The notes beneath the pieces are model-generated. The model saw nothing but the letters and a program-made list of their open reading frames with translations. It was not told the origin of the DNA and did no database searches. The translations under genes and the position numbers were made by a program. From an uncultured Selenomonadales bacterium (lineage in GTDB: Bacteria > Bacillota > Negativicutes > Selenomonadales > Selenomonadaceae), in the NCBI GenBank assembly GCA_946407095.1, contig CAMJMR010000001.1, positions 32,632 to 96,631 on the forward strand: a DNA stretch of 64,000 nucleotides, in the 5' to 3' direction. Each line of letters starts with the position of its first letter. The stretch's first letter is position 1. This document shows positions 3,934-63,597 of this stretch, piece after piece.

Positions 3934-3976
3934 TTGATAATCACTTCCTGACTAACTGAAATGTTGACGTTACGAA

Positions 3977-4068
3977 GCTAGCAATGCGCAGCGTTGCGTA
4001 TGGACGCGGTGACCAACTTTGAACAGAATAACGTTGGAGCGCGACCGCAGGATGCAACGTCACGTTGC
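3977..4068 (+). repeat. Family-1 palindrome-ended element, copy 1 (subtype a)
   Basis: GCTAGCAATGCGCAGCGTTGCGTATGGACGCGG...GGATGCAACGTCACGTTGC. It aligns with the copies at 31436, 31610 and 46380, and overlaps the last codons of rplE. Confidence 0.8.
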
Positions 4069-14524: not shown

Positions 14525-15040
<516 letters not shown>

Positions 15041-22330: not shown

Positions 22331-22361
22331 CTAGTTCCTAGTTCCCAGTTCCTAGTTCCTC
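22331..22361. repeat. CTAG-heptamer tandem array upstream of the ABC ATPase gene
   Basis: ACTAGTTCCTAGTTCCCAGTTCCTAGTTCCT. An inverted single unit AACTAGGAA lies at 22315. Confidence 0.7.
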
Positions 22362-28700: not shown

Positions 28701-31383
28701 AAATTTTTCGCTTAAGGCCGGCGAACGCTTTCGATTGCAGGACGGCGAACGGCTCGCGCTGATTGAGTCGGGCAAGGTCGAAGTCTACGTCGTCACTCGC
28801 GCCGAGGGTTCCTTCCGTCAGCAATTCTTGGTTGAGTTGACGGCGGGGGAGGCGGCTTTCCCGTCGCTTGACGAATTTGAGCAGACCGAAACGCTGATTT
28901 ACGCCGCCGAAGACTCGCAAATAAAAATCCTCACGTTCGACGAAGCAGAGCCCGCCGCGTTGAAAAATTTCATGCGCAACTGGTTCGCCGAGCTGATTAA
29001 GTTGCCGTGGCTGCGCCTGCTTGCCGACAAGGGCGACGACGTTCTAATCACGTGGCTGGACGGCACGGTTCTGGAGGGCGCGGACGATTTGACCGACGCC
29101 TTCCGCGAAAACGAAGAAATTTTTTCAATGCTGTTGGGCGTGCGCTTCCAAGCGGAGGATAAGCGTTTCTCTCAACGCGTCGAAGTCCGCACGCGCAATC
29201 AGCGGCGACTGCTTGACAACTCGATAGCAAACCTCCTCGGCGAAGAAACGACCCAATACAGCGAAACGACCGAACGCGCCGAACTTTTGGAGGAGGCGTC
29301 TTTTATCGTGCGGCGGGCTGCCGTTGCGCTGAACATGCCGACCGACAACATCAAACTCGACCCCGAAATCGTTCGCAAGCTCGACCAAATCAGATTGATT
29401 CGGCGGCTCGTTCAAAAGGGCAACATGCAGATGCGCCTTATCGAACTCGTCGAAGACTGGCATAAAAACGACAGCGGCGTCATAATCGGCTACTACGGCG
29501 AACGAAAGACCCTTGCCGTCTTCGTGCCGACCGCGCCCGACAAATACAAGCTAATCACCAAGGACAAGCCCGAAGGCATCCCGATAACCGACGACGTTGC
29601 CGCGCAGATTGACAGGAGTGCCTTTGAATGCTACGGCGGCTTCCCTGCGCGGGAACTGGGCATTCTCGACCTGATGAAGTTCATTTTCAAGCAGTGCTGG
29701 ATTTCCGACTACAAAACCGTCATCGTTATCAGCCTCGTATCGGGTTTGATTCCGTTGGCAATGCCGCTGGTGACGGAAACGATTTTCGCCGACATAATCC
29801 CGATTCTCGACCGTCAAGGGCTCGCGACCGTCACGCAGGTCATCATGGTCACAAGCTTCACGACGGCGTCATTGGGCATCGTCCGCACGATAGCCGTCAT
29901 GCGAATCACAACGCGCATGAACATGGCGACGGAGGCGGCTCTTTGGGGACGACTGCTCACCTTGCCGACGAAATTTTTCCGCCGGTTCACCTCCGGCGAA
30001 TTGGCAAGCCGCATGAACGGTATCAGCGTCATCAAAGGGCTCGTCAGCGCAGATTTTATCGGCGGGCTGTTCGGCTTCGTCTTCAGCTTCTGGAGCATCT
30101 TTTTGATGTGCTACTACAGCCTCAAGCTCACTGCGGTGGCGGTGGTTATCTGGTTCGTCTACGCGATTGTCACGGCGTTCATCTATCGGCGCGTCATAAA
30201 CTTTCAGCGCAGCCTTATCGCCGCCAACAACAAGGAGGCGGGCATTGTCCAACAGATTTTCAAAGGGCTTGCCAAGTTCCGCGAACACGGCGCGGAGAAT
30301 CAAGCTTACTGGTTGTGGAGCGGCGTCTTCGGCGAAACGTGGAAATGGAACTTGAAACTGCGCTGGCAAAGCAACTACAACATGATTATCGGCAGCGTTC
30401 AGCCGTTTATCTTGACGATGGCACTTTACTATATCGCGGTCTACGGCATTAACGAGGTCGGCCCCAACGGGCAAATGGTTCAAGGCATAACCTACGCGCA
30501 GTTCATTGCGTTCCAAGGAGCCTTCTCAAGCTTCAACGCCACGCTGAACGGGATTGTTCCGCTTGTCGGTCAATACTTCGCGATTCAGCCGCACATTGAA
30601 AACTTGCGCCCGATACTCAAGGAAGTGCCCGAAAGCGTCGGCGAAAAGGCGGACGCGGGCATTTTGAGTGGCGCGATTGAACTCAACGGCGTGACGTTCG
30701 CCTACAACGAGGGGCATGACGTTTTGCACGAAGTCAGCTTCAAGATAGCGGCGGGCGAGAACGTTGCGATAGTCGGGCGGTCGGGTTGCGGCAAGTCGAC
30801 GCTTGTAAGGTTGCTTTTGGGTTTCGAGACGCCGCGCAAGGGCTCAATCTACTTCGACGGTCAAGACTTGGCTGAACTCAACTTGCCGAGCGTCAGAACT
30901 CAAATGGGCGTCGTGTTGCAAAACGGTCAGCTCATGCAAGGCGACATCTTCACGAACATAATCGGCACCAACGCCTTGACGCAGGAGGACGCATGGCAGG
31001 CGGCCGAGGCGGCGGGCATTGCGGCTGATATCGCGATGATGCCCATGGGTATGCAAACCGTCATCAGCGAGGGCTCAACCAATATCAGCGGCGGACAACG
31101 GCAAAGGATTTTGATAGCCCGCGCCCTGGTTACCAAACCGTCAATCCTAATCTTCGACGAGGCGACCAGCGCGCTTGACAACCGAACTCAAGCCATCGTC
31201 ACAAAGAGCCTGGACAGCCTCAACGCCACGCGAATAATCGTTGCCCACCGCTTGTCGACGATTCGCAACTGCGACAGGATTTTGGTCATGGACGCGGGCA
31301 GGATTGTCGAGAACGGCACCTTCGACGATTTGGTTGCGCAAGGCGGGATTTTTGCTAACTTGGTCAAACGTCAGACGGCTTAA
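28684..31383 (+). CDS. Bacteriocin export ABC transporter, permease/ATPase subunit with an N-terminal cNMP-binding-like domain
   Basis: About 900 aa, with Walker A GRSGCGKST and signature ISGGQRQRILIARAL. The GTG at 28684 is preceded by AGGAGA. The track ORF begins at TTG 28663. Confidence 0.88.
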   Translation: MTRLSKNFSLKAGERFRLQDGERLALIESGKVEVYVVTRAEGSFRQQFLVELTAGEAAFPSLDEFEQTETLIYAAEDSQIKILTFDEAEPAALKNFMRNWFAELIKLPWLRLLADKGDDVLITWLDGTVLEGADDLTDAFRENEEIFSMLLGVRFQAEDKRFSQRVEVRTRNQRRLLDNSIANLLGEETTQYSETTERAELLEEASFIVRRAAVALNMPTDNIKLDPEIVRKLDQIRLIRRLVQKGNMQMRLIELVEDWHKNDSGVIIGYYGERKTLAVFVPTAPDKYKLITKDKPEGIPITDDVAAQIDRSAFECYGGFPARELGILDLMKFIFKQCWISDYKTVIVISLVSGLIPLAMPLVTETIFADIIPILDRQGLATVTQVIMVTSFTTASLGIVRTIAVMRITTRMNMATEAALWGRLLTLPTKFFRRFTSGELASRMNGISVIKGLVSADFIGGLFGFVFSFWSIFLMCYYSLKLTAVAVVIWFVYAIVTAFIYRRVINFQRSLIAANNKEAGIVQQIFKGLAKFREHGAENQAYWLWSGVFGETWKWNLKLRWQSNYNMIIGSVQPFILTMALYYIAVYGINEVGPNGQMVQGITYAQFIAFQGAFSSFNATLNGIVPLVGQYFAIQPHIENLRPILKEVPESVGEKADAGILSGAIELNGVTFAYNEGHDVLHEVSFKIAAGENVAIVGRSGCGKSTLVRLLLGFETPRKGSIYFDGQDLAELNLPSVRTQMGVVLQNGQLMQGDIFTNIIGTNALTQEDAWQAAEAAGIAADIAMMPMGMQTVISEGSTNISGGQRQRILIARALVTKPSILIFDEATSALDNRTQAIVTKSLDSLNATRIIVAHRLSTIRNCDRILVMDAGRIVENGTFDDLVAQGGIFANLVKRQTA

Positions 31384-31435
31384 GGGGGATTTGGCATGAA
31401 GAATTTTTTGACGACCTTAAGCGCGGCGATTGAGT

Positions 31436-31528
31436 GGGCTAGCAATGCGCAGCGTTGCGTTTTGACGCGGCGAATACGTTTGAATCATGAGCGACACGGC
31501 GCGCTATCCGGATGCAACGTCACGTTGC
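31436..31528 (+). repeat. Family-1 element, copy 2 (subtype a)
   Basis: GGGCTAGCAATGCGCAGCGTTGCGTTTTGACGCGGCGAATACGTTTGAATCATGAGCGACACGGCGCGCTATCCGGATGCAACGTCACGTTGC. Confidence 0.85.
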
Positions 31529-31609
31529 CGAACTTAGTCAAGCGTCAGACGGCTTAAGGGGGATTTGGCATGAAGAATTTTTTGACGACCTTAAGCGCGG
31601 CGATTGAGT

Positions 31610-31702
31610 GGGCTAGCAATGCGCAGCGTTGCGTTTTGACGCGGCGAATACGTTTGAATCATGAGCGACACGGCGCGCTATCCGGATGCAACGTCACGTT
31701 GC
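31610..31702 (+). repeat. Family-1 element, copy 3 (identical to copy 2)
   Basis: Identical sequence, 174 nt downstream of copy 2. Confidence 0.85.
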
Positions 31703-31744
31703 CGAACTTAGTCAAGCGTCAGACGGCTTAAGGAGTGATTCGTT

Positions 31745-33250
31745 ATGAAAAAATTTTTGGCGGCTTTAGCGACAGCGGCGTTACTTTTTCCGAACACGAC
31801 TCAAGCCGCCGAAGGCGTGAGTTTGACGCTTGACGACGCGATTGAACTTGCGCTGAAGAACAACCGCCTAATCGAGCAGTCGACGGCGGACAGGGAGGCA
31901 GCCAAGTGGAATTTGTCAGCCGTGCGCCGCAATGCGGGTCCCATACTCAGCTGGTCTTCGTCGTTAAACCATATCGGCGGCAGATTTTATCGCAGAAACT
32001 ATCGCAACATCAGGGACGATGTCAAAGCGCGAAATGCGGAGTACAGAGCGACTTACGGCTACGAGCCCTACAACATGAATCTTTACCCGAATTACAATTA
32101 CGAAGGCACGCACAGCTTGACGTTGCGAATGCCGGTGTACACGGGCGGGCGTCTTGAGAATCAGCGGGAGTCAGCGCGCTACACTCTGAACGCTGCCGAT
32201 TTGACGCTTGAAAATTCTCGTCAGCAAGTCAAGTACCAAGCGGCGGCGGCTTACTATCGCGTCCTTCAGCAAGAAAGTTTGGTCGGCGTGCAGGAGCAGG
32301 CGGTTCGGCTTTTGCAAGAGCACTTGCGCATGGTTTCCACCCAATACGAAGTCGGCACCGTCGCCAAGTCGGATGTGCTTGCCACCAACGTTCAGCTTGC
32401 CAACAGCCAACAGAGCTTGACCACCGCGCAGGGCAATTATCAAACCGCCGTCGCGCAACTCAACAACGTTTTGGGTTTGCCCGTCGACACCGAAATTGCC
32501 GCGAGCGATAAGATTAATTTCGTCAAATACGGCTTGAGCGAGGCTGATTGCCTTGACTACGCCTTGAGCCACCGCCCCGACGGAATTGCCGCCGTTTACG
32601 CCGCCAAGCGAGCCGGAGCTGATGTTTCCGCCGCAAAGAGCGGTTTTCGCCCGAATGTTTCGGCTATCGTGCAAGGAATAGCCACGGGCGAAAGTTACTT
32701 CAAAGCAGACCATCGAAGCGAACGTTTGTCGGTCGGCGTCGAGATGACTTGGAATATTTTCGACAACGGCATTACCTCCGCGCAGGTTCAGCAATACAAG
32801 GCCGTCGAGCGCAGAGCCGAGTCGGTCGCCCGCCAACAGATTGAAACGATTCAGCTTGAAGTGCACAGCGCGTATATCGCCTTGAAGACCGCCGAGAAAA
32901 ATATCGAGACGACAGCCGCCGCCGTCGACAAGGCGGAGGAGGAATTCGCCATCGCGCAAGTCCGCTACGTCGAGGGCGTCGACACCAACTTGAACGTCAT
33001 GAACGCGCAGGAAAAGGTCGTCGAGACGCGCAACAACTACTACGCCGCCGTTTACAACTACAACACGAGCCGCGCGCAACTGGAAAAGGCAATGGGCGTT
33101 CCCGTCGCGATTGACGCGTTGCTTTACGCCGAAGCGGAACAGGAAGGCAAATCGTCGCCGAAGTCCTTGGAGGCGGCCGCCGTCAATCAAAATGATTCGT
33201 CGGAGGCTGAAGTCGTCAAAGAATCGCCCGCGCCCTTCGACAAGCAATGA
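31745..33250 (+). CDS. TolC-family outer-membrane efflux protein
   Basis: 501 aa ORF with a signal peptide MKKFLAALATAALLFPNTTQA and two repeated TolC halves (...LTLDDAIELALKNNRLIEQ...). Confidence 0.9.
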   Translation: MKKFLAALATAALLFPNTTQAAEGVSLTLDDAIELALKNNRLIEQSTADREAAKWNLSAVRRNAGPILSWSSSLNHIGGRFYRRNYRNIRDDVKARNAEYRATYGYEPYNMNLYPNYNYEGTHSLTLRMPVYTGGRLENQRESARYTLNAADLTLENSRQQVKYQAAAAYYRVLQQESLVGVQEQAVRLLQEHLRMVSTQYEVGTVAKSDVLATNVQLANSQQSLTTAQGNYQTAVAQLNNVLGLPVDTEIAASDKINFVKYGLSEADCLDYALSHRPDGIAAVYAAKRAGADVSAAKSGFRPNVSAIVQGIATGESYFKADHRSERLSVGVEMTWNIFDNGITSAQVQQYKAVERRAESVARQQIETIQLEVHSAYIALKTAEKNIETTAAAVDKAEEEFAIAQVRYVEGVDTNLNVMNAQEKVVETRNNYYAAVYNYNTSRAQLEKAMGVPVAIDALLYAEAEQEGKSSPKSLEAAAVNQNDSSEAEVVKESPAPFDKQ

Positions 33251-33546
33251 CGGGCGGACTCCTTTCGTTTGCTAAGCAAAAGGGCGCAAAGACAGCTCGG
33301 CTTGACATTCGCGGCGTGTCTCTTCGATTCAACGTTTGAATGATTTTTATGTTTAGGATCTACTTTCTTTCACTGGCGAAAGAAAGTAGCAAAGAAAGCC
33401 ACCACTGCGCGTGGGGCGGATACCGACCACCGCCGCAACGTTCGCGTCCCAGTCAGCCACTCGTGCCGCTGTCGACGCATCACGCGTCGAAGTCGCGGCG
33501 GCCGCCCGTCCATGGGCGGCCTCGTCCTCTGCAACGTATCACTGCA
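33251..33546 (+). repeat. Family-2 structured element, long form (copy b); candidate ncRNA
   Basis: Starts directly after the tolC stop. The segment 33361-33501 is identical to 53139-53279. Confidence 0.8.
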
Positions 33547-34671: not shown

Positions 34672-37600
34672 TCACTTTCCTGCGAGAATTTTGTAGCCGT
34701 TAATGCGTTCTTCGGCATCGTGCTGTGTCTTTTCAAAGAGAGCCTGCGCGGCGTCGGGGAAGTTGCGCTTCAAGGACGAATAACGGACTTCGCCCATAAG
34801 GAATTCTTGGAACTTGCTGAAGTCGGGCTCCTTGCTGTCGAGCGTGAAAGGATTCTTGCCCGCCGCTGCGAGTTGAGGATTGAAACGCCAATTAGCCCAG
34901 TAGCCGCACTGAACGGCGAGCTTGCCCTCCAGTTGGCTTGAACCCATGCCCTTGCGTATGCCGTGATTGATGCAGGGCGCGTAGGCGATAATCAACGACG
35001 GACCGGGATAAGCCTCCGCCTCCGTGACGGCTTTGAGCAGCTGATTCTGGTCTGCGCCCATCGAGACTTGCGCAACGTAGACGTAGCCGTAACTCATCGC
35101 CATCTTGCCTAGGTCTTTCTTCTTGGTGCGCTTGCCTGTCGCCGCGAATTGCGCGATAGCCGCAGCCGGAGTCGCCTTCGACGCTTGACCGCCCGTGTTC
35201 GAGTAGACTTCCGTATCGAAGACAAAGACGTTGACATCTTCGCCGCTTGCCAAAACGTGGTCAAGCCCGCCGTAGCCGATATCGTAAGCCCAGCCGTCGC
35301 CGCCGAGTATCCATTGCGAGCGCTTCACGAAAAAGTCGCGGTTGTCGAAGATTTTATTCAGCAGTTCGTCCGAGCCCTTTTGAGCGGCAAGCAACGCCGT
35401 CAACTTATCTGCGCGGTCGCGAGTGCCTTCGCTGACGTCGCGGTTGTCCTTCCAGTCGGTCAAAGCCGCTACCAGTTCCTTGTTCCTTGTTCCTTGTTCC
35501 TGAATTGCTTGTTCGACTTCGTTGGCCAACATTTCACGAATCGCCTTGACGCCGAGGAACATGCCCAAGCCGTATTCGGCGTTGTCTTCAAAGAGCGAAT
35601 TGCCCCAAGCGGGACCGTGACCCTTGAAATTTTTGGTGTAGGGCATTGCCGGTGCCGACGCGCCCCAAATCGACGAGCAACCCGTAGCGTTGGCAATCAT
35701 CATGCGGTCGCCGTAAAGTTGCGTCAAAAGTTTTGCGTAAGGCGTTTCGCCGCAACCCGCGCAGGCTCCGCTGAACTCAAACAGCGGCTTTTCAAACTGA
35801 CTGCCGATAACGGTCGTCTTCTTCGTCGGATTCTCTTTTTGAGCGAGCTTGACGCCGTAATCGAAAATTTTCTGCCGAGCCATCGCCTTGTCGTCGAACT
35901 TGACCATTTCCAACGCCTGCTTCGGACAAACCTGCGCGCAGTTGCCGCAGCCGAGGCAGTCGTAGGTTGAGACGGCGATTGTCACGTCATACTTGCCGCG
36001 AGAAATTTTCGACGGAATAGCCTCCATGCCTTCGGGCGCGGCCTTGAGTTCGTCTTCGGTCGTGAGAATCGGGCGAATAGCGGCATGCGGGCAAACGAAC
36101 GAACATTGATTACAGCCGATGCATTTTGACTTGTCCCACGCGGGAACTTTGATAGCCGTGCCGCGTTTTTCGTAGGCCGTGCCGCCGACGGGGAATGTGC
36201 CGTCCGCCAAGTCGACAAACTTGCTGACAGCCAACTCGTCGCCTTCCTGCCGATTCATGACGTTTTGGATGTCGGTGACGAATTCGGGCGGGTCGACTTG
36301 TTTCAGGTTGCGATTCATGCTTGTGTCGTCGACGTCCCACGTGCTTGTGTCGACTTTGTGCAGAGCCTCAATGCCCTTGTCAATCGCGCCGCAGTTCATG
36401 TCGACGACGTTTTGCCCCTTCGAGCCGTAAGATTTTTCGACGGCGTCCTTGAGGTACTTAACAGCCTCGTCAATCGGAATGATGTTCGCCAGCTTGAAGA
36501 AGGCGGCTTGCATGACCATGTTGAAGCGTCCGCCCAAGCCGAGTTCGCCCGCGATTTTCACGGCGTTGACGGTGTAGACTTGAATGTCGTTGTCCTTGAT
36601 GTAGCGTTTCATTGCGGGCTTGAGCTTATGACCGAGCTTTTCGTCGCTCCAGTCGGTGTTGAGCAGGAAGGTGCCGCCCTTTTTCAAGCCCGCGATAAGA
36701 TTGTAATGATGAACGTAGCTTTTCTGCGAGCAGCTTACGAAGTCGGGCTTGGTGATAAGATACGGCGAGGTTATGGGCAACTTGCCGAAGCGCAGGTGGC
36801 TCATGGTGATGCCGCCGGATTTTTTCGAGTCGTAGGCGAAGTAAGCTTGCGCGTAAAGGTCGGTGTTGTCGCCGATGATTTTAATCGCGGACTTGTTCGC
36901 GCCGACGGTGCCGTCAGAGCCGAGACCCCAGAACTTGCAAGCGGTCGTGCCTTCGGGCGTCAAGTCAACGTCGTGATGACCCGTCACGAGGGATTTGTTG
37001 GACACGTCGTCGTTAATGCCGATAGTGAAGCCGTCAAGCGGCGAATCCTTTTTGAGTTCGTCGAAGACCGCAAGCAGTTGGTCGGGCGTGGTGTCCTTGC
37101 CGCCCAAGCCGAAACGTCCGCCGACGATAACGGGCTTGTCGGCCACGTCGTAGAAAGCGGCTTTAACGTCAAGATACAGGGGCTCGCCGACGGAGCCGCT
37201 TTCCTTCGTGCGGTCGAGGACGGCGATTTTCTTTACGGTTTTGGGAATGGCGTTGAGGAAGTGCTTGACGCTGAACGGGCGGTAGAGGTGGACGCTCACG
37301 ACGCCGACTTTTTCGCCCTGCGCGTTGAGGTAAGCCGCCGCCTCGTTTGCGGTTTGACAGCCCGAACCGATAGCGATAATGACGCGGTCGGCATCGGGCG
37401 CGCCGCTGTAGTCGAAGATGTGATGTTCGCGCCCCGTGACCTTTGCCACGTCAGTCATAATCTCTTCGACGATATCGGGCAGGCGGTCGTAGTTGTTGTT
37501 GACGGTTTCGCGAATCTGGAAGTAGACGTCGGGATTGGTGGCGGTGCCGCGCATGACGGGGTGGTCGGGATTGAGGGCGTTGCGGCGGAAGGCGTTGACC

Positions 37601-38285: not shown

Positions 38286-38335
38286 TTTCAAGCAAACATT
38301 TATAATAATAGAAAATAATTTTGGAGGGGAATTTA

Positions 38336-44228: not shown

Positions 44229-44287
44229 ATAATCGCAATGGTGGCGGGCGCGTCCCTTCAATTCGTCATTCGATTAAATTTATTTTT

Positions 44288-44461
44288 TAAATCTACTTTC
44301 TTTGTGCGGACAAAGAAAGTAGCAAAGAAAACCGCCGCTACGCGCGGGGCGAAGGGTCGTTACCCGCGCCGCCCGATATTTTCAGCGTGCTTGCGCCGAC
44401 GGTATTTGCGTCACGCAAATGCGTCGGCGACGGCCGCCCATCCTTGGGCGGCCTCTTTTTT
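44288..44461 (+). repeat. Family-2 structured element, short form (copy c), ending in a canonical terminator; candidate ncRNA
   Basis: P1 TACTTTCTTTGTGCGGACAAAGAAAGTA, a TCAC-loop hairpin ATTTGCGTCACGCAAAT, and a terminal hairpin GGCCGCCCATCCTTGGGCGGCC followed by TCTTTTTT. Confidence 0.75.
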
Positions 44462-46371: not shown

Positions 46372-46379
46372 AAGTTGGT

Positions 46380-46473
46380 GGGCTAGAAATGCGCATGCAT
46401 TTCGTATCGGCGCGGCGATACCGTTTGAATTACGGAAGCTAAGGCGCGCTATCAGGATGCAACGTCACGTTGC
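46380..46473 (+). repeat. Family-1 element, copy 4 (subtype a, diverged 5' arm)
   Basis: GGGCTAGAAATGCGCATGCATTTCGTATCGGCGCGGCGATACCGTTTGAATTACGG...GCGCGCTATCAGGATGCAACGTCACGTTGC. Confidence 0.8.
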
Positions 46474-46568
46474 CGCCGCTACCAAAAAATTTTCCTTGCC
46501 GAATACGGCGACGAACTCAATCCGGAGGTGTAAAGTGGAAGACATCAAACCGAGCTTGAGCCGCTTTA

Positions 46569-46663
46569 AAAGCGGCGAAACATATAACGCGTTTAAGCGT
46601 CCGGTAACTTCAGCCAGTCGCCGCGCATAAAATTTATCAACGAACTTTATTGGGAGGTTTGAC
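46569..46663 (-). repeat. Family-1 element, copy 5 (subtype b, diverged or truncated)
   Basis: The plus strand reads CCGCTTTAAAAGCGGCGAAACA...GTCGCCGCGCATAAAAT.... It aligns with 59846 and 63517. Confidence 0.6.
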
Positions 46664-53015: not shown

Positions 53016-53085
53016 TTCAATCCATCCTTGTCAGTGAACTTTAACCGATTATATTTGCCGCCAACTTTACCGTCAAGGAGTGGTT

Positions 53086-55966: not shown

Positions 55967-56156
55967 CTCAATCGCTCCTTTGATTTTGGTCGACGGAAAA
56001 TTTCTACAGGCGGCGGCGTTTTTCCTGCAGAGGGCTTGCGGTTGAAATTGCGCTGGCATTGAACTATAATCAATCGGATTATCTAGGGGCAGTTGGTAAC
56101 GTCAAACAGTGACGGTTCTTTTTTCGCCTGACGAAAGTTGTCGCGCGCTCGCCGGT

Positions 56157-56250
56157 CGCTTTAAAAGCGACGGAACAGCAAGGGCGCGGCGATTCCCTTA
56201 AGTCATCGACGAGTTTCAACGCGCTATCTGGGTCAAGCTTCAAGCTTGCG
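56157..56250 (+). repeat. Family-1-related element, copy 6 (mosaic: subtype-b hairpin at the 5' end, subtype-a-like hairpin at the 3' end)
   Basis: GTCGCTTTAAAAGCGACGGAACAGCAAGGGCGCGGCGA...GCGCTATCTGGGTCAAGCTTCAAGCTTGC. The 3' hairpin covaries with GCAACGTCACGTTGC. Confidence 0.6.
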
Positions 56251-56778: not shown

Positions 56779-58944
56779 ATGTTTAGAAAATTTTTTAAGG
56801 CATTGAGCGGGAAGAAAGAATCGCGCCGACAGCGACAGGAAACCGACATTGAGCGCGAAATTTCCGCGATTTACGCCATCCTCGTCGAAGTCATGGGCTC
56901 CGACAGATTGGTTTTGCAGGCGGGCAAGATGGACGCCCTCCGCTACATGCGCTCGAATGACCCCGCCGAACGCGTCCTTGCCCTGCGCAGAATCCTTGAG
57001 GAAAATCCTACGCTCGCGCCGCCGCCCAAGCCCAACGAACTTAAAGAACAAGTCATGGCTCTTTCGGAGCTGATAGCCGACATCATGGCGCGTCGACAGG
57101 TTGAAGACAAAATTGAACGCAAGATTAACGAGAAGCTTGAAAAGGAACATCAAGACTACGTCAAGGATATTCGTATGCAAGTTTTGCGCGAAGAGAACAA
57201 TTCCGAATCGCCGCACGACCAAAAGAAGCGCGAAGACCTTCAAGCCCTCGAAGACATTCACTTGACGCAATCGGTTATGGAATTGCTTAGGCCGAAGACG
57301 CTTGAAGAAATCGTCGGGCAGGGACGCGCCGTCAAGTCGTTGCGCTCAAAGCTTGCGTCGCCCTACCCGCAACATCTGATTTTGTACGGCCCGCCGGGCG
57401 TCGGCAAAACCACGGCGGCGCGGCTGATATTGGAGGCGGTGCGCGGCACAGAACTAAGTCCCTTCGGCGAAAATGCGCCCTTCGTGGAAACGGACGGCAC
57501 GACCCTCCGCTGGGACCCGCGTGACGTGACGAATCCGCTTTTGGGCTCGGTGCACGATCCGATTTATCAGGGCGCGCAACGTCAGCTTGCCGACAGCGGC
57601 GTCCCCGAACCGAAACCCGGTCTTGTCACGGACGCGCACGGCGGCATCCTGTTCATCGACGAAATCGGCGAAATGGATATCATGTTGCAGAACAAGCTGC
57701 TGAAAGTCTTGGAGGACAAGCGAGTTTTCTTCGAGTCGAGCTACTACGACCCTGCCGACGAAAAAGTTCCGCCTTACGTCAAAATGCTGTTCGAGAACGG
57801 TGCGCCCGCCGACTTCGTGCTTATCGGTGCCACGACCCGCGAACCTTCCGCGCTCAATCCCGCATTGCGTTCGCGTTGTGCAGAAATTTACTTCGAGCCG
57901 TTGACGCCCGCTCATATCGTCGAAATCGTCAACAACGCCGCGCAGAAGCTCAACGTCGAGCTTGAGGACGGGCTTGCCGAAACAATCAGCGAATACACGA
58001 TTGAAGGGCGCAAGGCGATTAACATTCTTGCCGACGCCTACAGCTTGGCTCTTGACCGCGCCGAGGAAAAAGTTTTGCACATCGACCGCCCCGTCAAAAT
58101 CGAAATGCGCGACGTGTACGAAGTGGCGCAAGTTAGCCGGCTTTATCAATACGTCACGCGCAAGGCGTCGAGCAAGGCGGCAGTCGGGCACATCTTCGGG
58201 CTGGGCGTCAGCGGCTTTATCGGCTCCGTCATCGAGATTGAGGCTGTCGTCTTCGCGGCGGAAAAGGGCAAGGGCACGATTCGCTTCAACGAGACGGCGG
58301 GCTCCATGGCGAAGGATTCGGTCTTCAATGCGGCGAGCGTCCTGCGCGGCGTGACGGGCAAAGACATTCACGACTTCGACGTGCACATAAACGTTATCGG
58401 CGGCGGCAACATCGACGGACCGAGCGCGGGCACGGCGATTTTGGCGGCGTTGGTCAGTGCAGTCACGGGCAAGCGCATTCGGCAAGACGTGGCTGTTACG
58501 GGCGAAATTTCCTTGCAGGGCAAAGTTCGGCCTGTCGGCGGCGTCTTCGAGAAGGCTTACGGCGCAAAGCAGGCGGGCATTAAGACGTTGGTTATCCCGA
58601 AGGAAAACGCCAAAGACATTCCGAAAGGACACTTGGGCTTGAAGATATTCGCAGTCGAGACGGCGGAGGAGGCTTTCAAAAAAATTTTCGCGGACGCGGT
58701 TGAATTCGTCGGCAAGCAAACGGTTTCGTTGGACAAAGACGAACAAACAGCTTTGACACCCACGCCATCGTCGAAAGACGAACAGATAAAAAAAAGCAAC
58801 GTGACGTTGCACCCAGATAGCGCGCTGAAAGATTGCGCCGACATTGATTCGACCCCCGCGTCGTCGTCGAAAGACGAACAGATAAAAAAAATTTCCTCAA
58901 CGACTGTGACGTCGGAGGAATTGGAAATGCTTACGAGCGATTGA
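56779..58944 (+). CDS. Lon-family ATP-dependent protease (LonC/LonB-like) with a repeat-derived C-terminal tail
   Basis: 721 aa ORF with Walker A GPPGVGKTT and a Lon protease Ser motif DGPSAGTAILAALVS. The tail after about residue 650 contains duplicated SSKDEQIKK and an embedded family-1 fragment. Confidence 0.88.
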   Translation: MFRKFFKALSGKKESRRQRQETDIEREISAIYAILVEVMGSDRLVLQAGKMDALRYMRSNDPAERVLALRRILEENPTLAPPPKPNELKEQVMALSELIADIMARRQVEDKIERKINEKLEKEHQDYVKDIRMQVLREENNSESPHDQKKREDLQALEDIHLTQSVMELLRPKTLEEIVGQGRAVKSLRSKLASPYPQHLILYGPPGVGKTTAARLILEAVRGTELSPFGENAPFVETDGTTLRWDPRDVTNPLLGSVHDPIYQGAQRQLADSGVPEPKPGLVTDAHGGILFIDEIGEMDIMLQNKLLKVLEDKRVFFESSYYDPADEKVPPYVKMLFENGAPADFVLIGATTREPSALNPALRSRCAEIYFEPLTPAHIVEIVNNAAQKLNVELEDGLAETISEYTIEGRKAINILADAYSLALDRAEEKVLHIDRPVKIEMRDVYEVAQVSRLYQYVTRKASSKAAVGHIFGLGVSGFIGSVIEIEAVVFAAEKGKGTIRFNETAGSMAKDSVFNAASVLRGVTGKDIHDFDVHINVIGGGNIDGPSAGTAILAALVSAVTGKRIRQDVAVTGEISLQGKVRPVGGVFEKAYGAKQAGIKTLVIPKENAKDIPKGHLGLKIFAVETAEEAFKKIFADAVEFVGKQTVSLDKDEQTALTPTPSSKDEQIKKSNVTLHPDSALKDCADIDSTPASSSKDEQIKKISSTTVTSEELEMLTSD
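58796..58860 (-). repeat. Family-1 element fragment, copy 7, inside the Lon-like ORF
   Basis: The plus strand reads GCAACGTGACGTTGCACCCAGATAGCGCGC.... It is flanked by 28-bp direct repeats at 58768-58795 and 58864-58891. Confidence 0.75.
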
Positions 58945-59791: not shown

Positions 59792-59840
59792 CCGTTATTC
59801 TCCGATAAATTTTTCTTGCCGACCTTCGACTCAAGCCGCC

Positions 59841-59943
59841 GCCGCCCGCTTTAAAAGCGGGGGAACAGTTAGCGCGTTGCAACTGACGACAAAGGAAACG
59901 TTATCGCCGCGTTCATACGCAACGCCGGCGCATTGCTAGCCCG
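59841..59943 (-). repeat. Family-1 element, copy 8 (subtype b)
   Basis: The plus strand reads GCCGCCCGCTTTAAAAGCGGGGGAACAGTTAGCGCGTTGCAACTGACG...GCCGCGTTCATACGCAACGCCGGCGCATTGCTAGCCC. Confidence 0.8.
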
Positions 59944-59960
59944 ATAAAATGGTTGGATTC

Positions 59961-62450
59961 TCAATTTTTCTTGCCGACCTTCGACTCAAGCCGCCTACGC
60001 AGTTCGTTATGAAAATCTTCCGCGCCCGCCTTGAATTTGACCTCGACGCAGATGACGTAGACCGGAATGCTCCACGCCTGCCGCGCCACTTCGTCCGGAA
60101 TTTTAACGGCGTCCTTTTCCGTCACAACAATCATTTCCGCCGCGAACGACTCCGCCCGCCGCAAGATGTCTTCCATTTCCGCAACCGTGTAGTCGTGGTG
60201 GTCGGGATAGCGCAGGCTCGAAATTATTTCCGCTCCCAAATCGCTTAGCGTCCTCTCGAACGACGCGGGGTTGCCGATAGCCGAAACCGCCATCACCTTC
60301 CGCCCGCGTAAAATCTCGACGCTGACGCCCTCGCCCGCCAAATCGACCGACCAATCGGCAAGCGGTATCAGGCAGCGCGGCTCGTGTATGCTCTCGACAA
60401 TCTGCGCGGCGGCATTGTACTTTTGAACGGTCTCGCGAATCAGCTCGCAAGAACCCTCGCGGGCTTGGTCAACCTTCGTCATGAGGCAAACATCTGCGCG
60501 GCTGATATGGGAAATGGATTCGCGCAACGTGCCGCGCGGCAAAAGGTGCCCGTTCCCGAAGACGGACACCGCGTCAATCAGCAGAATGTCGAAGTCGCGA
60601 ATGATTTGCCAATGTTGAAAGCCGTCGTCAAGAATCACGACCTCCGCGCCGAAATTTTCAATGGCGTATTGCCCCGTGACGGCTCGCCGCGCTCCGATTA
60701 GCACAGGGACATTCGGCAGGTGCTTGGCAAGCATGTAGGCTTCGTCGCCCGCCTCCGTCGCGTCCATTTTGAGCGTCTTGCCGTCGCTTACGATGCCGAC
60801 TTCGCCGTAAAATTTCGCCCGGTAGCCGCGATTGAGAATCACGACGCGATAGCCCATGTCGCGAATTTCCTTCGCCAGCCGTTGAGCCGTAGGCGTTTTG
60901 CCCGTCCCGCCGACCGTTATGTTGCCCAGGCTTATGACGAAACATTTCAGCCGCTCCTTGCCCGAAAAGCCCAAATCGTAGCCGAGTAGCCGCAGATTGA
61001 CCAGCCCTTTGTAGACCAGCGAGGCAAGATACATGACGAAAATCATCAGCGGCGTGAAGGCTCCGCGAACTTCTTCGTCGTGAATCAGCTTGAGGAAATA
61101 CGTTTGAACGTTTTCAATTTTCTCTGTCGTGCGGAGGCGGCGGGCGTTTTCCTTGGCCTCGTATTCGGTGAGCATTTGCCTTAGCAGGACGGCCGACTTG
61201 CGCGACGCGCCGCGATTCTCATGGACAATCTTAATCGTCTCTTCCTCAAGGCGTTGGCGTTCGGCGGGTTCGTCGAAAAGTTTCTTCGCCTGCGCGGCAA
61301 GTTCGTCAGCGTCCTTGACCGTGACGCAAGCGTTGCGATTCTTGAACAGCGCGTGCAAGTCTTTAAAATTTTCCATGTGGTGCCCGACGATAATCGCCTT
61401 GCCGTGCGCCGCCGGCTCAAGGATATTGTGGCCGCCGTGAGAAACCAGACTGCCGCCGACGTAAATCACGTTGCCGACGCTGTAGACTTGACCGAGTTCG
61501 CCGATAGTGTCGAGGATGATTATGTCTTCGCCCTTGGGCGGACGCTTTTGGAGTTCGGTGCGCGTGCCGACGGTGAAGCCTGCCGCCTTGCACAGCGCGA
61601 CGACTTCACGGGTGCGCAAAAGTTCGCGCGGGGCAATGACGAGCCGAGCCTTGGGATGATCTTCGCGAATAGCCTTGAACGCCTTGAGCACGAAATTTTC
61701 TTCGCCGCGATGCGTGCTGCCCGCCAAAAAAATTTCCGTGGCGTCCGTCAAGCCCATGTCCGACAAAATCTTGGCGCGTTGAGCGTCCGTGACATCGGTG
61801 TAGGTTTGGTCGAATTTCGTATTGCCCGTGACGATGACGAGGTCTTCAGGCGCACCGAGCTGCTTGACGTAGCCCGCGTCGACACTTGACGCCATAGCGA
61901 ACAGCTTGACCGTGCCGATCATATCGCGCAGGATTGAGAACATGTACTTGTAACGCTTGACGCTCTTTTCGGAAATGCGCCCGTTGACCATCATGACGGG
62001 CACTTGATGTTCGCGCGCCGCTTTGAGGAAGTTCGGCCACAGCTCCGTTTCGACGTTCAGAAAGACGCGCGGGAAAATTTTTTTGAAGACCGACTCCGAA
62101 ACGAACGGCAAATCCAGCGGGAAGTAGATTATGCTGTCCGCGTCTTTGATGATTCGGTTCGCCATTTCGTAGCCTGAAGTCGTCACGACCGACACGAGGA
62201 TTGGCGATTTGGGGAATTCGCGGCGGAACTCTTTAATCAGCGGGCTTGTGGCGACGATTTCTCCGACCGACGCCGCGTGCACCCATATGCAATTTTTTTT
62301 CGCCACGGGGTCCAGTGCGCCCTTCGGGAAGAAGCCGAAGCTTTGACGGATTCGCTCCACGAAGCCGCGCTCCCGTATCGAACGAATCATGAACACCGGG
62401 ATAATCAGTATCACGACGAGTATCGCCGCCAAGTTGTAAAGTAATTGCAA
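59961..62450 (-). CDS. Bifunctional fusion: Kdo transferase (WaaA/KdtA) plus tetraacyldisaccharide 4'-kinase (LpxK)
   Basis: 829 aa ORF. The N-terminal half has WVHAASVGE and GT30 features. The C-terminal half has VISLGNITVGGTGKTP (LpxK P-loop). Confidence 0.88.
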   Translation of the reverse strand: MQLLYNLAAILVVILIIPVFMIRSIRERGFVERIRQSFGFFPKGALDPVAKKNCIWVHAASVGEIVATSPLIKEFRREFPKSPILVSVVTTSGYEMANRIIKDADSIIYFPLDLPFVSESVFKKIFPRVFLNVETELWPNFLKAAREHQVPVMMVNGRISEKSVKRYKYMFSILRDMIGTVKLFAMASSVDAGYVKQLGAPEDLVIVTGNTKFDQTYTDVTDAQRAKILSDMGLTDATEIFLAGSTHRGEENFVLKAFKAIREDHPKARLVIAPRELLRTREVVALCKAAGFTVGTRTELQKRPPKGEDIIILDTIGELGQVYSVGNVIYVGGSLVSHGGHNILEPAAHGKAIIVGHHMENFKDLHALFKNRNACVTVKDADELAAQAKKLFDEPAERQRLEEETIKIVHENRGASRKSAVLLRQMLTEYEAKENARRLRTTEKIENVQTYFLKLIHDEEVRGAFTPLMIFVMYLASLVYKGLVNLRLLGYDLGFSGKERLKCFVISLGNITVGGTGKTPTAQRLAKEIRDMGYRVVILNRGYRAKFYGEVGIVSDGKTLKMDATEAGDEAYMLAKHLPNVPVLIGARRAVTGQYAIENFGAEVVILDDGFQHWQIIRDFDILLIDAVSVFGNGHLLPRGTLRESISHISRADVCLMTKVDQAREGSCELIRETVQKYNAAAQIVESIHEPRCLIPLADWSVDLAGEGVSVEILRGRKVMAVSAIGNPASFERTLSDLGAEIISSLRYPDHHDYTVAEMEDILRRAESFAAEMIVVTEKDAVKIPDEVARQAWSIPVYVICVEVKFKAGAEDFHNELRRRLESKVGKKN

Positions 62451-63515: not shown

Positions 63516-63597
63516 CCCGCTTTAAAAGCGGGGGAACAGCGGACGCGCCTCAACGTTTCACTGCTTAAAGTTGGTCGCCCGCGTCCATACGCATTGC
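63516..63597 (-). repeat. Family-1 element, copy 9 (subtype b)
   Basis: The plus strand reads CCCGCTTTAAAAGCGGGGGAACAGCGGACGCGCC...GTCGCCCGCGTCCATACGCATTGC. It is flanked by direct repeats of about 65 bp. Confidence 0.8.

What the first reader, a model, noticed from the sequence alone, without database searches (positions are those of the whole stretch)
31436..31528. Family 1: REPIN/MITE-like palindrome-ended element, 9 copies in 64 kb, always at gene boundaries
Copies and architecture, seen directly:
- Copies lie at 3977, 31436, 31610, 46380, 46569, 56157, 58796, 59841 and 63516, in both orientations.
- The common architecture is a 5' arm GGGCTAGCAATGCGC(A/C)GCGTTGCGT, then a core GCGGCGA..ACGTT..GCGCGCTA, then one of two 3' arms.
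- Subtype a ends in GGATGCAACGTCACGTTGC, which contains a perfect 15-nt palindrome.
- Subtype b ends in CTGTTCCCCCGCTTTTAAAGCGGG.
- The 5' arm is an imperfect inverted copy of the subtype-a 3' arm, so the ends behave like terminal inverted repeats that are themselves hairpins.
- Copy 6 is a mosaic of the two arm types. Its 3' hairpin GCAAGCTTCAAGCTTGC covaries with GCAACGTCACGTTGC.
- Every copy lies within 0-70 nt of a start or stop codon, or inside a coding terminus.

Interpretation, by inference: REP doublets (REPINs) mobilised by RAYT transposases, and IS200/IS605-derived PATEs, are the closest known analogues. No transposase gene is in the window.
Basis: partly seen in the sequence, partly recalled or inferred. 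Interest (0 to 1): 0.7.

Follow-up and report, generated by a model that had tools for sequence, protein, structure and literature searches.

The report
Hairpin-tipped mobile DNA with long duplications
The nine repeats are real copies of a small parasitic DNA element whose only invariant part is a 19-base hairpin at one end; that same hairpin turns up in bacteria of at least four phyla and in their viruses, and in this bacterial group each insertion duplicates 30-80 bases of the gene end or gene start it lands in, a combination no described bacterial repeat family shows.

Summary
A profile of the copies finds exactly the nine reported copies in the window and nothing else.

The REPIN/RAYT label does not fit.
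- Seven of the nine copies are bracketed by direct duplications of the target of 31-66 nt. These duplications carry gene ends or gene starts.
- The duplication starts at the base right after the 3' hairpin, and that base is a pyrimidine in 92% of cases. The 5' end of the insert is variable, giving inserts of 30-130 nt.
- The 3' hairpin GGATGCAACGTCACGTTGC occurs exactly in more than 117 stretches of reference genomes, against about 4 expected by chance. These are Selenomonadales, Clostridia, Fusobacteriaceae, Verrucomicrobiota and Planctomycetota. It also occurs in 46 viral contigs, including Microviridae, and in frame inside terminase genes. The element bodies differ by lineage.
- Sister alleles of the form GGGT-NNAGCG-TCA-CGCTNN covary perfectly in the stem.

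Rfam and the paper library hold neither a matching family nor the sequence. No transposase or reverse transcriptase lies in the window or near any copy.

My best reading is a trans-mobilised, one-ended copy-and-paste element anchored at a single-stranded hairpin. An HUH-type rolling-circle logic is most likely, and target-primed reverse transcription is the main rival. The enzyme is unidentified.

The parts
3975..4068 (+). Copy 1. Full length, a-type: 5' hairpin, core, and GGAT-GCAACG-TCA-CGTTGC at 4050-4068. No flanking duplication.
   Evidence: The rplE (L5) ORF 4063-4602(-) ends in the TGA inside the hairpin. The S14 gene starts at 3933(-).
31357..31759 (+). Tandem array of 2.3 units of 174 nt. 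Each unit is a target duplication plus an element.
   Evidence: TRF gives period 174, 96% matches. The repeat finder family D2.
31436..31528 (+). Copy 2 (the reported locus), a-type. The terminal hairpin motif is at 31510-31528. The stretch 31418-31435 holds a fragment of a second core (AAGCGCGGCGATTGAGT).
31610..31702 (+). Copy 3, identical to copy 2. The terminal hairpin motif is at 31684-31702.
31357..31387 (.). Target duplication of copies 2 and 3 (AACTTrGTCAArCGTCAGACGGCTTAAGG..), repeated at 31531-31561 and 31705-31735. It contains the last codons and stop of the ABC-transporter gene. A diverged continuation runs to about 79 nt and contains a gene-start-like segment.
46373..46473 (+). 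Copy 4, a-type, a 101-nt insert. The hairpin motif is at 46455-46473. It is flanked by a 61-nt duplication, 46312-46372 and 46474-46534 (93% identical), which carries the end and stop of the glycosyltransferase gene.
46560..46639 (-). Copy 5, b-type, an 80-nt insert. The hairpin GCCGCTTTAAAAGCGGC is at 46560-46576. It is flanked by a 49-nt duplication, 46511-46559 and 46640-46688 (84% identical), which carries the ribosome-binding site and GTG start of the next gene.
56150..56250 (+). Copy 6, composite: an inverted b-type hairpin at 56155-56171, the core, and GGGT-CAAGCT-TCA-AGCTTG at 56230-56248. No duplication was found. The orthologous copy in L009 has the canonical GGAT hairpin and lacks the 44-nt b-type part.
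58796..58850 (-). Copy 7, 5'-truncated (55 nt), GGGT-GCAACG-TCA-CGTTGC on the minus strand at 58796-58814. It is flanked by a 41-nt duplication, 58755-58795 and 58851-58891 (90% identical). It lies in frame in the tail of the Lon-like protease.
59846..59962 (-). Copy 8, b-type, a 117-nt insert. The hairpin is at 59845-59861. It is flanked by a 38-nt duplication, 59808-59845 and 59963-60000 (95% identical), lying between truA and the kdtA-lpxK fusion gene.
63516..63597 (-). Copy 9, b-type, an 82-nt insert lacking most of the 5' hairpin. The hairpin is at 63516-63532. It is flanked by a 64-66-nt duplication, 63452-63515 and 63598-63663, which carries the ribosome-binding site, the ATG and 13 codons of an ABC ATPase gene.

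Best explanation
The repeats are copies of a short (30-130 nt) non-autonomous mobile element.

What defines the element. The only defining part is a terminal signal: GG(A/G)T followed by a perfect 6-bp hairpin with a TCA loop. The canonical form is GGAT-GCAACG-TCA-CGTTGC.

Proposed mechanism:
- The signal is read on a single strand by a trans-acting enzyme encoded elsewhere in the genome.
- That enzyme nicks or joins exactly at the 3' foot of the hairpin, next to a pyrimidine.
- A copy of the element is made starting from this fixed end. It runs a variable distance into the body and sometimes into the donor's upstream flank. This is one-ended copy-and-paste, as in IS91 or Helitron-type rolling-circle transposition from a single origin-like end.
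- The single strand is then joined into a target.
- In Selenomonadales and Clostridia, completion of the insertion re-copies 17-130 nt of target on the other side. The resulting long duplication regenerates the gene end or gene start that was hit. This is why copies survive inside operon junctions and coding termini.
- Recombination between the duplicated flanks then produces tandem arrays or clean loss.

Shown here: mobility, the fixed 3' edge, the pyrimidine at +1, the variable 5' edge, the duplications, the stem covariation, and the distribution across phyla and phages.

Inferred, not shown: the single-stranded intermediate, an HUH-type nickase as the mobiliser, and the replication or repair origin of the duplications.
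For: Family and edges:
- Nine copies in the window, nothing else.
- In 172 non-redundant copies nothing is conserved beyond +2. Position +1 is C in 57% and T in 35%.
- 46 of 273 hairpins are followed within 3 nt by a copy of upstream sequence, against 0 in a displaced control. In 32 single events the duplication is 17-130 nt (median 45), the insert is 30-128 nt (median 70), and the duplication starts at offset 0 in 30 of 32.

Filled versus empty orthologous sites: L250 vs L134 (+99 nt, about 18-nt duplication), L015 vs L235 (+94 nt), L133 vs L146 (+40 nt), L006 vs L083 (+89 nt).

The hairpin is read as a structure:
- Seven different outer stem pairs are all complementary in 24 sister-allele copies.
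- Three alleles sit in one otherwise constant microvirus module. All cells are paired, 4 pairs change on both sides, and 0 of 500 shuffles reach the observed value.

Distribution:
- The exact 19-mer occurs in more than 117 genome stretches from four or more phyla, against about 4 expected.
- It occurs in 46 viral stretches. The two sister alleles occur in 33 and 58 viral stretches.
- A 17-mer control hairpin gives only 4 viral hits.

Fit to HUH logic:
- HUH enzymes recognise a hairpin plus flanking bases and join at a base-specific site.
- They normally make no duplication, which matches most viral and Verrucomicrobiota/Planctomycetota copies.
- Variable-length duplications and fuzzy ends are documented for the HUH-mobilised Replitron-1 and for Chlamydomonas Helitrons (PMC10288648).
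Against: - No HUH, RAYT, TnpA or Rep gene was found associated with the copies in about 2 Mb of loci or in the window.
- Long duplications are not a canonical outcome of HUH transposition.
- The 5' ends of inserts show no pyrimidine preference (about 10 of 23), so the second junction is not made by the same site-specific cleavage.
- The microvirus Rep proteins next to identical hairpins are only about 29% identical, and most related microviruses lack the hairpin. They are therefore not the cognate enzyme.
- A conserved 3' end, a truncated 5' end and variable duplications are the classical signature of target-primed reverse transcription.
Confidence: 0.4

Rival explanations
1. SINE-like retroposon. 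Transcripts that end at the hairpin, their 3' end defined by processing or exonuclease arrest at the stem, are copied by a trans-acting reverse transcriptase. Copying is primed on a nicked target, as in target-primed reverse transcription. It starts at the hairpin end and stops at variable points, and a staggered second-strand break gives the duplication.
For: - The 3' end is invariant and sharp, and the 5' end is variable or truncated. Duplications are long and of variable length, starting at offset 0.
- The last 9 nt are occasionally reiterated after the hairpin (L088, L003, L085).
- Some copies carry 5' extensions that look like the donor's upstream flank (window 31388-31435, L006).
- Different lineage-specific bodies share one 3' tail, as SINEs share the tail of their LINE partner.
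- There is GTT(T)GC microhomology at one junction.
Against: - No reverse transcriptase was found in the window or near any copy.
- No bacterial element of this kind is known (established knowledge; literature searches found none).
- Most viral, Fusobacteriaceae and Verrucomicrobiota/Planctomycetota copies lack duplications.
- There are no A tails or CCA tails.
- Single-mismatch hairpin variants show no excess of G-T over A-C mismatches (4 against 4).
Confidence: 0.17
2. There is no dedicated transposase. The hairpin protects or defines the 3' end of single-stranded DNA taken up or displaced in the cell. A piece made of a gene end plus the element is integrated by homology on one side and by an illegitimate, microhomology join at the hairpin end on the other. 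This would be homology-facilitated illegitimate recombination, or template switching of nascent strands at forks. On this view the 'duplications' are partly donor-derived.
For: - L006 vs L083: the extra 57-nt copy of the gene start encodes the same peptide (MRKQLRLSGSGGQG) but is only 68% identical in DNA. The diverged copy is the one fused to the gene body.
- In L115 and window copies 3 and 5 the paired flanks differ in the way paralogues or orthologues differ.
- Duplications are common only in some host groups.
- In microviruses the hairpin lies on the packaged strand in an intergenic region. In G4 and phiX174-type phages the F-G intergenic region holds the complementary-strand priming hairpins (my own knowledge).
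Against: - This does not explain how the element reaches unrelated loci.
- It does not explain why one exact 19-mer, with a conserved GGRT head and TCA loop, is kept across phyla.
- Only 9 of the 28 ungapped single events are at least 95% identical, but whole units repeat at 100% in the arrays of L092 and L098, and 18 further flank pairs are 85-95% identical. This indicates duplication in place.
- The sharp pyrimidine preference at +1 points to an enzyme.
Confidence: 0.1
3. A classical MITE derived from a DDE insertion sequence that makes long, variable duplications. IS1634 and IS1549 give 8-514-bp direct repeats.
For: Long, variable direct repeats are documented for IS1634 and IS1549, and no mechanism is known for them (PMC2266710). 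In this lineage the 5' and 3' hairpins resemble each other.
Against: - Inserts bracketed by duplications can be as short as 30-34 nt and have no second inverted repeat (L010, L040, L043, L036).
- The 5' hairpin is absent from 4 of the 9 window copies and from other lineages.
- Stem covariation indicates recognition of a folded single strand, not of duplex terminal repeats.
- No pair of inverted hairpins flanks a transposase gene in any locus.
Confidence: 0.04
4. Not mobile DNA. On this view the repeat is a regulatory or structural hairpin, such as a terminator, an mRNA stabiliser or a protein operator, which has been recruited repeatedly at gene ends.
For: The copies lie at gene boundaries. 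In Fusobacteriaceae the hairpin is followed by a T run.
Against: - Filled and empty orthologous sites exist.
- Copies carry flanking duplications.
- Insertions lie in frame inside terminase and protease genes.
- Copies occur in both orientations.
- There is sporadic presence in 6 of about 64 related microviruses.
- No Rfam family matches.
Confidence: 0.03

Closest known systems
REP / REPIN elements mobilised by RAYT (TnpA-REP), and IS200/IS605-derived PATEs
   Same: They are short, high-copy and non-autonomous, and lie at gene ends. They are defined by a hairpin plus a short conserved head that is read as single-stranded DNA. The mobiliser acts in trans.
   Different: - REPINs are two inverted REPs, and PATEs have two defined ends. 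Here only one end is defined.
- Those families make no target duplication. Here duplications are 17-130 nt in Bacillota.
- REP heads are GTAG or CGTC (PMC3733652 abstract). Here the head is GGAT or GGGT.
- REP sequences are specific to a genome or species (my own knowledge). This 19-mer is identical across phyla and phages.
- No RAYT or TnpA was found.
IS91/ISCR one-ended transposition and Helitron or Replitron rolling-circle elements (HUH Rep transposases)
   Same: - The ends are asymmetric. One origin-like or terminator-like end has a hairpin and a base-specific junction with the target, and the other end is variable or 'fuzzy'.
- The mode is copy-and-paste.
- Variable-length duplications are reported for Replitron-1 and for Chlamydomonas Helitrons (PMC10288648).
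   Different: - Those are kilobase elements that encode their own Rep.
- Their variable end usually extends into the flank, rather than truncating the element.
- Duplications are the exception in those families, and much shorter.
- No Rep or Y2 gene has been linked to this element.
Eukaryotic SINE/LINE retroposition (target-primed reverse transcription)
   Same: The 3' tail is conserved and shared by otherwise unrelated bodies. Copies are 5'-truncated. Target duplications are of variable length and start right after the 3' end. Flanking sequence is occasionally transduced.
   Different: There is no reverse transcriptase partner, no A-rich tail and no evidence of an RNA intermediate. Many copies lack duplications. 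Nothing of this kind is described in bacteria.
IS1634 / IS1549 (IS1634 family, DDE)
   Same: These are the only bacterial elements I could document that make long direct repeats of variable length (8-514 bp; PMC2266710).
   Different: They are autonomous 1.5-2 kb insertion sequences with terminal inverted repeats and a DDE transposase. The present inserts have a single defined end and can be as short as 30 nt.
Rickettsia palindromic elements (RPE)
   Same: They are short palindromic elements that are tolerated in frame inside protein-coding genes (my own knowledge). Here the 19-mer has a stop codon in only 1 of 6 frames, and it is found in frame in terminase and Lon-like genes.
   Different: RPEs are restricted to one genus, are about 100-150 nt long with two defined ends, and are not reported to have long duplications.

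Membership tests
REPIN / RAYT system | Two REP hairpins in inverted orientation, separated by a short spacer, make up the mobile unit. | tested here: not met
   Inserts bracketed by duplications contain one terminal hairpin. The 5' hairpin is missing in 4 of the 9 window copies and in the 30-60-nt inserts.
REPIN / RAYT system | A RAYT (Y1 HUH) gene lies in the genome, typically flanked by the REPs. | tested here: inconclusive
   None was found in the window (Pfam). None was found in about 1.3 Mb of loci searched with phmmer using remembered RAYT and IS608 TnpA seed sequences. Whole genomes could not be searched.
REPIN / RAYT system | A conserved GTAG or CGTC head next to the palindrome, and no target duplication. 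| tested here: not met
   The head is GGAT or GGGT. Duplications of 17-130 nt are present.
IS200/IS605-derived PATE | Defined left and right ends, each with a subterminal hairpin, and insertion 3' of a fixed tetra- or pentanucleotide without duplication. | tested here: not met
   The 5' end is variable. There is no conserved target apart from a pyrimidine at +1 on the hairpin side. Duplications are present.
IS91 / Helitron-type rolling-circle elements | One end has a hairpin and a base-specific junction, and the opposite end is variable. | tested here: met
   The 3' edge is sharp and +1 is a pyrimidine in 92% of copies. Inserts run from 30 to 128 nt.
IS91 / Helitron-type rolling-circle elements | A Y2 or Y1 Rep-type HUH transposase that recognises the end. 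| not testable with these tools
   No candidate lies in the held loci. Genome-wide co-occurrence could not be computed.
DDE MITE (including the IS1634 type) | Terminal inverted repeats at both ends, matching those of an autonomous insertion sequence. | tested here: not met
   Short inserts have no second repeat. No locus has inverted 19-mers around a transposase gene.
Non-LTR retroposon / SINE | A conserved 3' end, 5' truncation and variable target duplications. | tested here: met
   This holds for Bacillota copies only. Duplications are rare in viral and Verrucomicrobiota/Planctomycetota copies.
Non-LTR retroposon / SINE | A partner reverse transcriptase and an RNA intermediate. | tested here: inconclusive
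   No reverse transcriptase was found by regex search of about 1.3 Mb of loci, by Pfam on the window, or among the 10 most recurrent neighbour-ORF clusters in the 2 Mb set. An RNA intermediate cannot be tested in silico.
Rfam RNA families | A match to a curated covariance model. | tested here: not met
   The window gives 0 hits at gathering score. The region 31340-31720 gives 0 hits at E<=10. Twelve loci give only rRNA, tRNA and chance hits. The microvirus module gives only a sub-threshold Clostridiales-2 hit, 16 bits against a gathering score of 58.6.

The most novel reading that the evidence does not exclude
The family is a bacterial and phage counterpart of SINEs. Any transcript or single strand that ends in the GGRT-hairpin would be copied into nicked DNA by an as yet unrecognised trans-acting polymerase, either a reverse transcriptase or a template-jumping enzyme. 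This would give 5'-truncated inserts, transduced flanks and long target duplications. The process would operate across at least four bacterial phyla and on double-stranded and single-stranded DNA phages.
Probability: 0.17. Interest if true: 0.95.

Novelty: new variant of a known kind. Interest (0 to 1): 0.74.

Why it matters
If the anatomy described here holds, this would be one of the most widely distributed small mobile elements in bacteria. One identical 19-nt signal is found in rumen and gut Firmicutes, Fusobacteria, soil Verrucomicrobia and Planctomycetes, tailed phages and microviruses. It appears to be undescribed.

Consequences for genomes:
- It rewrites gene ends. It supplies stop codons, adds peptides in frame, duplicates gene starts and ends, and builds tandem arrays.
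- The long duplications are a built-in way to insert into compact operons without killing genes.

Open questions it could address:
- Finding the mobilising enzyme would either extend HUH biology to one-ended mini-elements that make long duplications, or reveal a bacterial retroposition pathway.
- It could also shed light on the unexplained long duplications of IS1634 and IS1549.

Practical use: the exact 19-mer is a convenient marker for annotating these insertions in metagenome-assembled genomes and viral contigs.

Tried and rejected
Searches for the mobiliser, all negative:
- All-against-all clustering of ORFs in 117, then 164, then 251 loci. The recurrent neighbours are ABC transporters, response regulators and HK97-type head genes (capsid, portal, TerL, protease), not enzymes of transposition.
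- phmmer with IS608 TnpA and E. coli RAYT sequences written from memory, plus reverse-transcriptase motif regexes: nothing.
- Pfam on 40 window ORFs gave only housekeeping genes and one free-standing HNH_3+NUMOD4 endonuclease. That endonuclease has no homologue in any locus.

Autonomous element bounded by two inverted hairpins:
- L018 holds ordinary genes between the hairpins.
- L130 is two separate in-frame insertions in a terminase gene.

Microvirus Rep as the cognate enzyme, or the hairpin as an intrinsic microvirus origin: rejected. Only 6 of about 64 related microviruses carry the hairpin. Two lineages whose Rep proteins are about 29% identical share the same module.

Database searches:
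- Annotated plasmids: no real hit.
- Cultured phages: no full 19-mer.
- Exact-sequence searches of about 8 million papers: none relevant.
- Rfam: nothing.
- The look-up of encoding contigs for a window protein: not on record.

Weak or uninformative tests:
- Orientation relative to flanking genes: 29 antisense against 15 sense, a weak bias.
- Wobble asymmetry to identify the functional strand: too few variants.
- A conserved upstream hairpin at a fixed distance: only a mild enrichment, so not claimed.
- Coupling of the prefix A/G with stem position 4: 13 concordant against 4 discordant among unbiased copies, suggestive only.
- The b-type hairpin is not widespread: 4 viral hits for a 17-mer.
Full report
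**1. The observation**

- The sequence at 31436-31528 is as described.
- A profile built from eight copies finds exactly the nine reported copies in the 64-kb window, with E-values from 3e-18 to 5e-9, and no further credible hit.
- All nine copies share a core, GCGCGGCGA...about 30 nt...GCGCGCTA.
- Five copies also have a 5' hairpin, GCAATGC-GCA-GCGTTGC. Its stem covaries in copy 4 (GAAATGC/GCATTTC) and in related genomes.
- The 3' end takes one of three forms:
  - a-type, GGAT-GCAACG-TCA-CGTTGC, in copies 1-4. Copy 7 has a GGGT head.
  - the variant GGGT-CAAGCT-TCA-AGCTTG in copy 6.
  - b-type, CTGTTCC-CCCGCTT-TTA-AAGCGGG, in copies 5, 8 and 9.
- Copies 2 and 3 are two units of a 174-nt tandem array.
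- The window encodes ordinary genes of a diderm Firmicute: ribosomal proteins, EF-Tu and EF-G, PFOR, LpxK/KdtA, an OEP-family protein and flagellar rod proteins. It has no transposase, reverse transcriptase or HUH gene.
- The closest element copies in public genomes come from Selenomonadaceae and Quinella MAGs.

**2.

Seven of the nine copies are bracketed by long direct duplications of the target.

| Copy | Duplication |
|---|---|
| 2 and 3 | 31 nt clean, up to 79 nt diverged |
| 4 | 61 nt |
| 5 | 49 nt |
| 7 | 41 nt |
| 8 | 38 nt |
| 9 | 64-66 nt |

- The duplicated pieces are the last codons and stop codon of the upstream gene, or the ribosome-binding site, start codon and first codons of the downstream gene. 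One intact copy of each gene end therefore survives.
- Copy 1 has no duplication. The rplE reading frame instead ends in the TGA inside the hairpin.
- Copy 7 lies in frame in the tail of a Lon-like protease. It adds SNVTLHPDSALKDCADIDSTPA and a second SSKDEQIKK.
- This explains the 'always at gene boundaries' pattern. It reflects what selection lets through once the insertion regenerates the boundary it hit.

**3. The terminal hairpin is shared across phyla and phages**

- The exact 19-mer GGATGCAACGTCACGTTGC occurs in at least 117 stretches of the 596-Gb species-representative genome set.
- I counted these by record title:

| Group | Stretches |
|---|---|
| Selenomonadales | 41 |
| Clostridia | 47 |
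| Fusobacteriaceae (including the isolate Propionigenium maris DSM 9537) | 10 |
| Verrucomicrobiota | 14 |
| Planctomycetota | 3 |
| Alphaproteobacterial MAG | 1 |
| Unclassified | 1 |

- It occurs in 46 stretches of viral contigs. A 17-mer control, the b-type hairpin, gives only 4.
- The sequence upstream of the 19-mer differs by lineage, so the hits are not contamination.
- In 172 non-redundant copies, information content falls to zero after +1. Position +1 is C in 57% and T in 35%. Upstream there is only a weak AAYT before GGAT. The element therefore has one sharp edge.

**4. The hairpin is read as a folded single strand**

- In the same loci there are 24 copies of sister alleles, GGGT-NNAGCG-TCA-CGCTNN. 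Seven different outer stem pairs occur and all are complementary. About 0.04 such hairpins are expected by chance in that amount of DNA.
- Two sister alleles are themselves frequent in viral contigs, at 33 and 58 stretches.
- The cleanest case is a roughly 170-nt non-coding module shared at 90% identity or more by two microvirus lineages. Their capsid and Rep proteins are only 24-30% identical.
  - Inside this constant context three hairpin alleles occur.
  - A small upstream hairpin also switches from GCC/GGC to CGC/GCG.
  - On the alignment, all 63 cells are paired, 4 of 9 pairs change on both sides, and none of 500 shuffles reaches the observed covariation.
- Hairpins with a single mismatch are rare: 12 against about 300 perfect ones.

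**5. Mobility and the geometry of insertion**

- Of 273 non-redundant hairpins, 46 are followed within 3 nt by a copy of sequence lying upstream. A control displaced by 400 nt gives 0.
- In 32 single-unit events:
  - the duplication is 17-130 nt, median 45;
  - the inserted segment is 30-128 nt, median 70;
  - the duplication starts at the very next base in 30 of 32.
- Within the Selenomonadales family the inserts form a continuum: 32 nt (L040, L043), 66 nt (L105), 86-107 nt, and 120 nt (L074). All share the 3' end, and they begin at different points of the consensus or with unrelated 5' sequence.
- Tandem arrays of duplication plus element occur in L011, L022, L092, L098 and in the window.
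- Filled and empty orthologous sites confirm insertion:

| Pair | Extra DNA | Duplication |
|---|---|---|
| L250 vs L134 | +99 nt | about 18 nt, starting right after the hairpin |
| L015 vs L235 | +94 nt | none; GTT(T)GC microhomology |
| L133/L150 vs L146 | +40 nt, in frame in a terminase gene | none |
| L006 vs L083 | +89 nt | 57-nt copy of the gene start, only 68% identical |

- Long duplications depend on the host group. The first 12 nt after the hairpin recur upstream in these proportions:

| Group | With recurrence |
|---|---|
| Selenomonadales | 22 of 45 |
| Clostridia | 12 of 55 |
| Fusobacteriaceae | 0 of 8 |
| Verrucomicrobiota/Planctomycetota | 1 of 20 |
| Viral copies | 2 of 130 |

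**6. The search for the mobiliser failed**

- No protein family recurs next to the copies except common transporters and, in viral contigs, HK97-type head genes.
- No RAYT, IS200-type TnpA or reverse-transcriptase signature was found.
- The one nuclease gene in the window, an HNH_3+NUMOD4 gene at 42506-43267, has no relative in any locus.
- The microvirus Rep is not the partner, and the hairpin is not an intrinsic microvirus origin. Only the six members of one clade, out of about 64 related microviruses, carry the hairpin. Their relatives have an intergenic region about 110 nt shorter.
- Whole genomes could not be searched with the tools at hand.

**7. How it most likely works**

Shown here:
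- the element is mobile;
- the edge at the hairpin is fixed and abuts a pyrimidine;
- the other edge is variable;
- duplications run from 0 to 130 nt;
- the hairpin is recognised as a structure;
- the mobiliser acts in trans.

Inferred:
- A hairpin with a short conserved head, read on single-stranded nucleic acid and joined at a base-specific site, is how HUH nucleases work. IS200/IS605 TnpA, RAYT, Rep proteins and relaxases all do this (established knowledge; PMC10288648).
- The asymmetry between one fixed origin-like end and one variable end is that of one-ended IS91-type, Helitron-type or Replitron-type rolling-circle copying.
- HUH elements normally leave no duplication, which matches most viral and Verrucomicrobiota/Planctomycetota copies.
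- Variable-length duplications and fuzzy ends have nevertheless been seen for Replitron-1 and for Chlamydomonas Helitrons. There too they occur in one host only, and the cause is unknown.
- I therefore rank a trans-acting HUH-type, one-ended copy-and-paste mechanism first (0.4).
- The classical signature of target-primed reverse transcription fits the Bacillota data well and is the main rival (0.17). That signature is a shared 3' tail, 5' truncation, variable duplications and transduced flanks. It has no enzyme and no bacterial precedent behind it.
- A model without a dedicated enzyme comes next (0.1). It involves uptake or template switching with one homologous anchor. It is prompted by cases in which the two 'duplicated' flanks differ like paralogues (L006, L115).
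- A DDE MITE of the IS1634 kind (0.04) is contradicted by the data.
- A non-mobile regulatory hairpin (0.03) is also contradicted.

**8. Comparison with known families, and novelty**

- The element works like hairpin-dependent single-strand transposons. It fails the membership tests for REPIN/RAYT, IS200/IS605 PATEs and DDE MITEs.
- It matches no Rfam family.
- Neither the 15-mer, its complement, nor the sister alleles occur in the text of about 8 million papers and preprints.
- IS1634 and IS1549 are the only bacterial elements I could document with long, variable direct repeats. Their mechanism is likewise unknown (PMC2266710).
- I class the finding as a new variant of a known kind: hairpin-defined non-autonomous elements.
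- It has three unusual properties:
  - a single defined end;
  - long duplications that regenerate gene ends;
  - an identical terminal signal across phyla, tailed phages and microviruses.
- The most novel reading not excluded is a bacterial SINE-like retroposon.

**9. Unexplained**

- In L006, the copy of the gene start fused to the gene body is the diverged one. It is 68% identical, with synonymous multi-base codon changes. The relic copy still matches the orthologue in L083 at about 90%.
- The head base (A or G) tends to match stem position 4 (A-T or G-C). Among copies not used as search queries this is 13 concordant against 4 discordant, which is not significant on its own.
- It is not known why duplications are frequent in Selenomonadales and nearly absent in viral copies.

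Noticed in passing
window 10789-11078, 33260-33535, 44279-44351, 53076-53313: A second, unrelated repeat family of up to about 280 nt. It contains the palindrome CTACTTTCTTTC-ACTGGC-GAAAGAAAGTAG. Copies lie in both orientations, and the family is also present in several Selenomonadales loci (L007, L039, L050, L058, L062, L099, L109).
   Followed up: partly
window 15012-15041, 22331-22360, 35475-35501: Short heptamer arrays, about 4 units each (CTAGTTC twice, GTTCCTT once). They lie directly next to gene boundaries: between the S12 and S7 genes, and just before the ABC ATPase start at 22366.
   Followed up: no
window 42506-43267 (+): A free-standing HNH_3 + NUMOD4 (+HTH) endonuclease gene of the homing-endonuclease type, lying between pfk and the shikimate dehydrogenase gene. 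It has no homologue in any fetched locus, so it is not linked to the element.
   Followed up: partly
window 38321-39477: A low-GC stretch (0.46 against about 0.54) with two ORFs that have no Pfam match. It may be foreign DNA.
   Followed up: no
L125, L135, L137, L147, L153, L241 and L156, L170, L172, L173, L224 (e.g. L137:4590-4775): Two microvirus lineages, whose proteins are 24-30% identical, share a roughly 170-nt non-coding module at 90% identity or more. It lies downstream of the capsid-side genes on the coding strand and contains the hairpin in three compensating alleles. About 58 related microviruses lack it. In these microviruses conservation runs 27 nt past the hairpin, unlike in the chromosomal copies.
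   Followed up: yes
L130:623-2638 (-), L133:3835-5535 (-), L150: Hairpin elements are inserted in frame inside phage terminase large-subunit genes. They add peptides such as QRDVAS..., or DATSRC in the opposite orientation. The 19-mer has a stop codon in only one of six frames.
   Followed up: yes
L006:4384-4472 versus L083:~560-600: A filled versus empty orthologous site. The extra 57-nt copy of the gene start encodes the same 14 residues but is only 68% identical in DNA, and it is the copy now fused to the gene. The relic copy still matches the orthologue. This suggests a donor-derived flank or a homology-guided 5' junction.
   Followed up: partly
L023:~4042, L091, L048:~4104: Some copies abut the 3' end of tRNA genes directly, with the hairpin foot next to the encoded CCA. 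In Fusobacteriaceae copies sit right after terminator T runs.
   Followed up: no
L088:~330-360 (-), L003:~1446, L085:~276: The last 9 nt (TCACGTTGC), or partial hairpins, are reiterated immediately after the terminal hairpin. This looks like stuttering at the fixed end.
   Followed up: no
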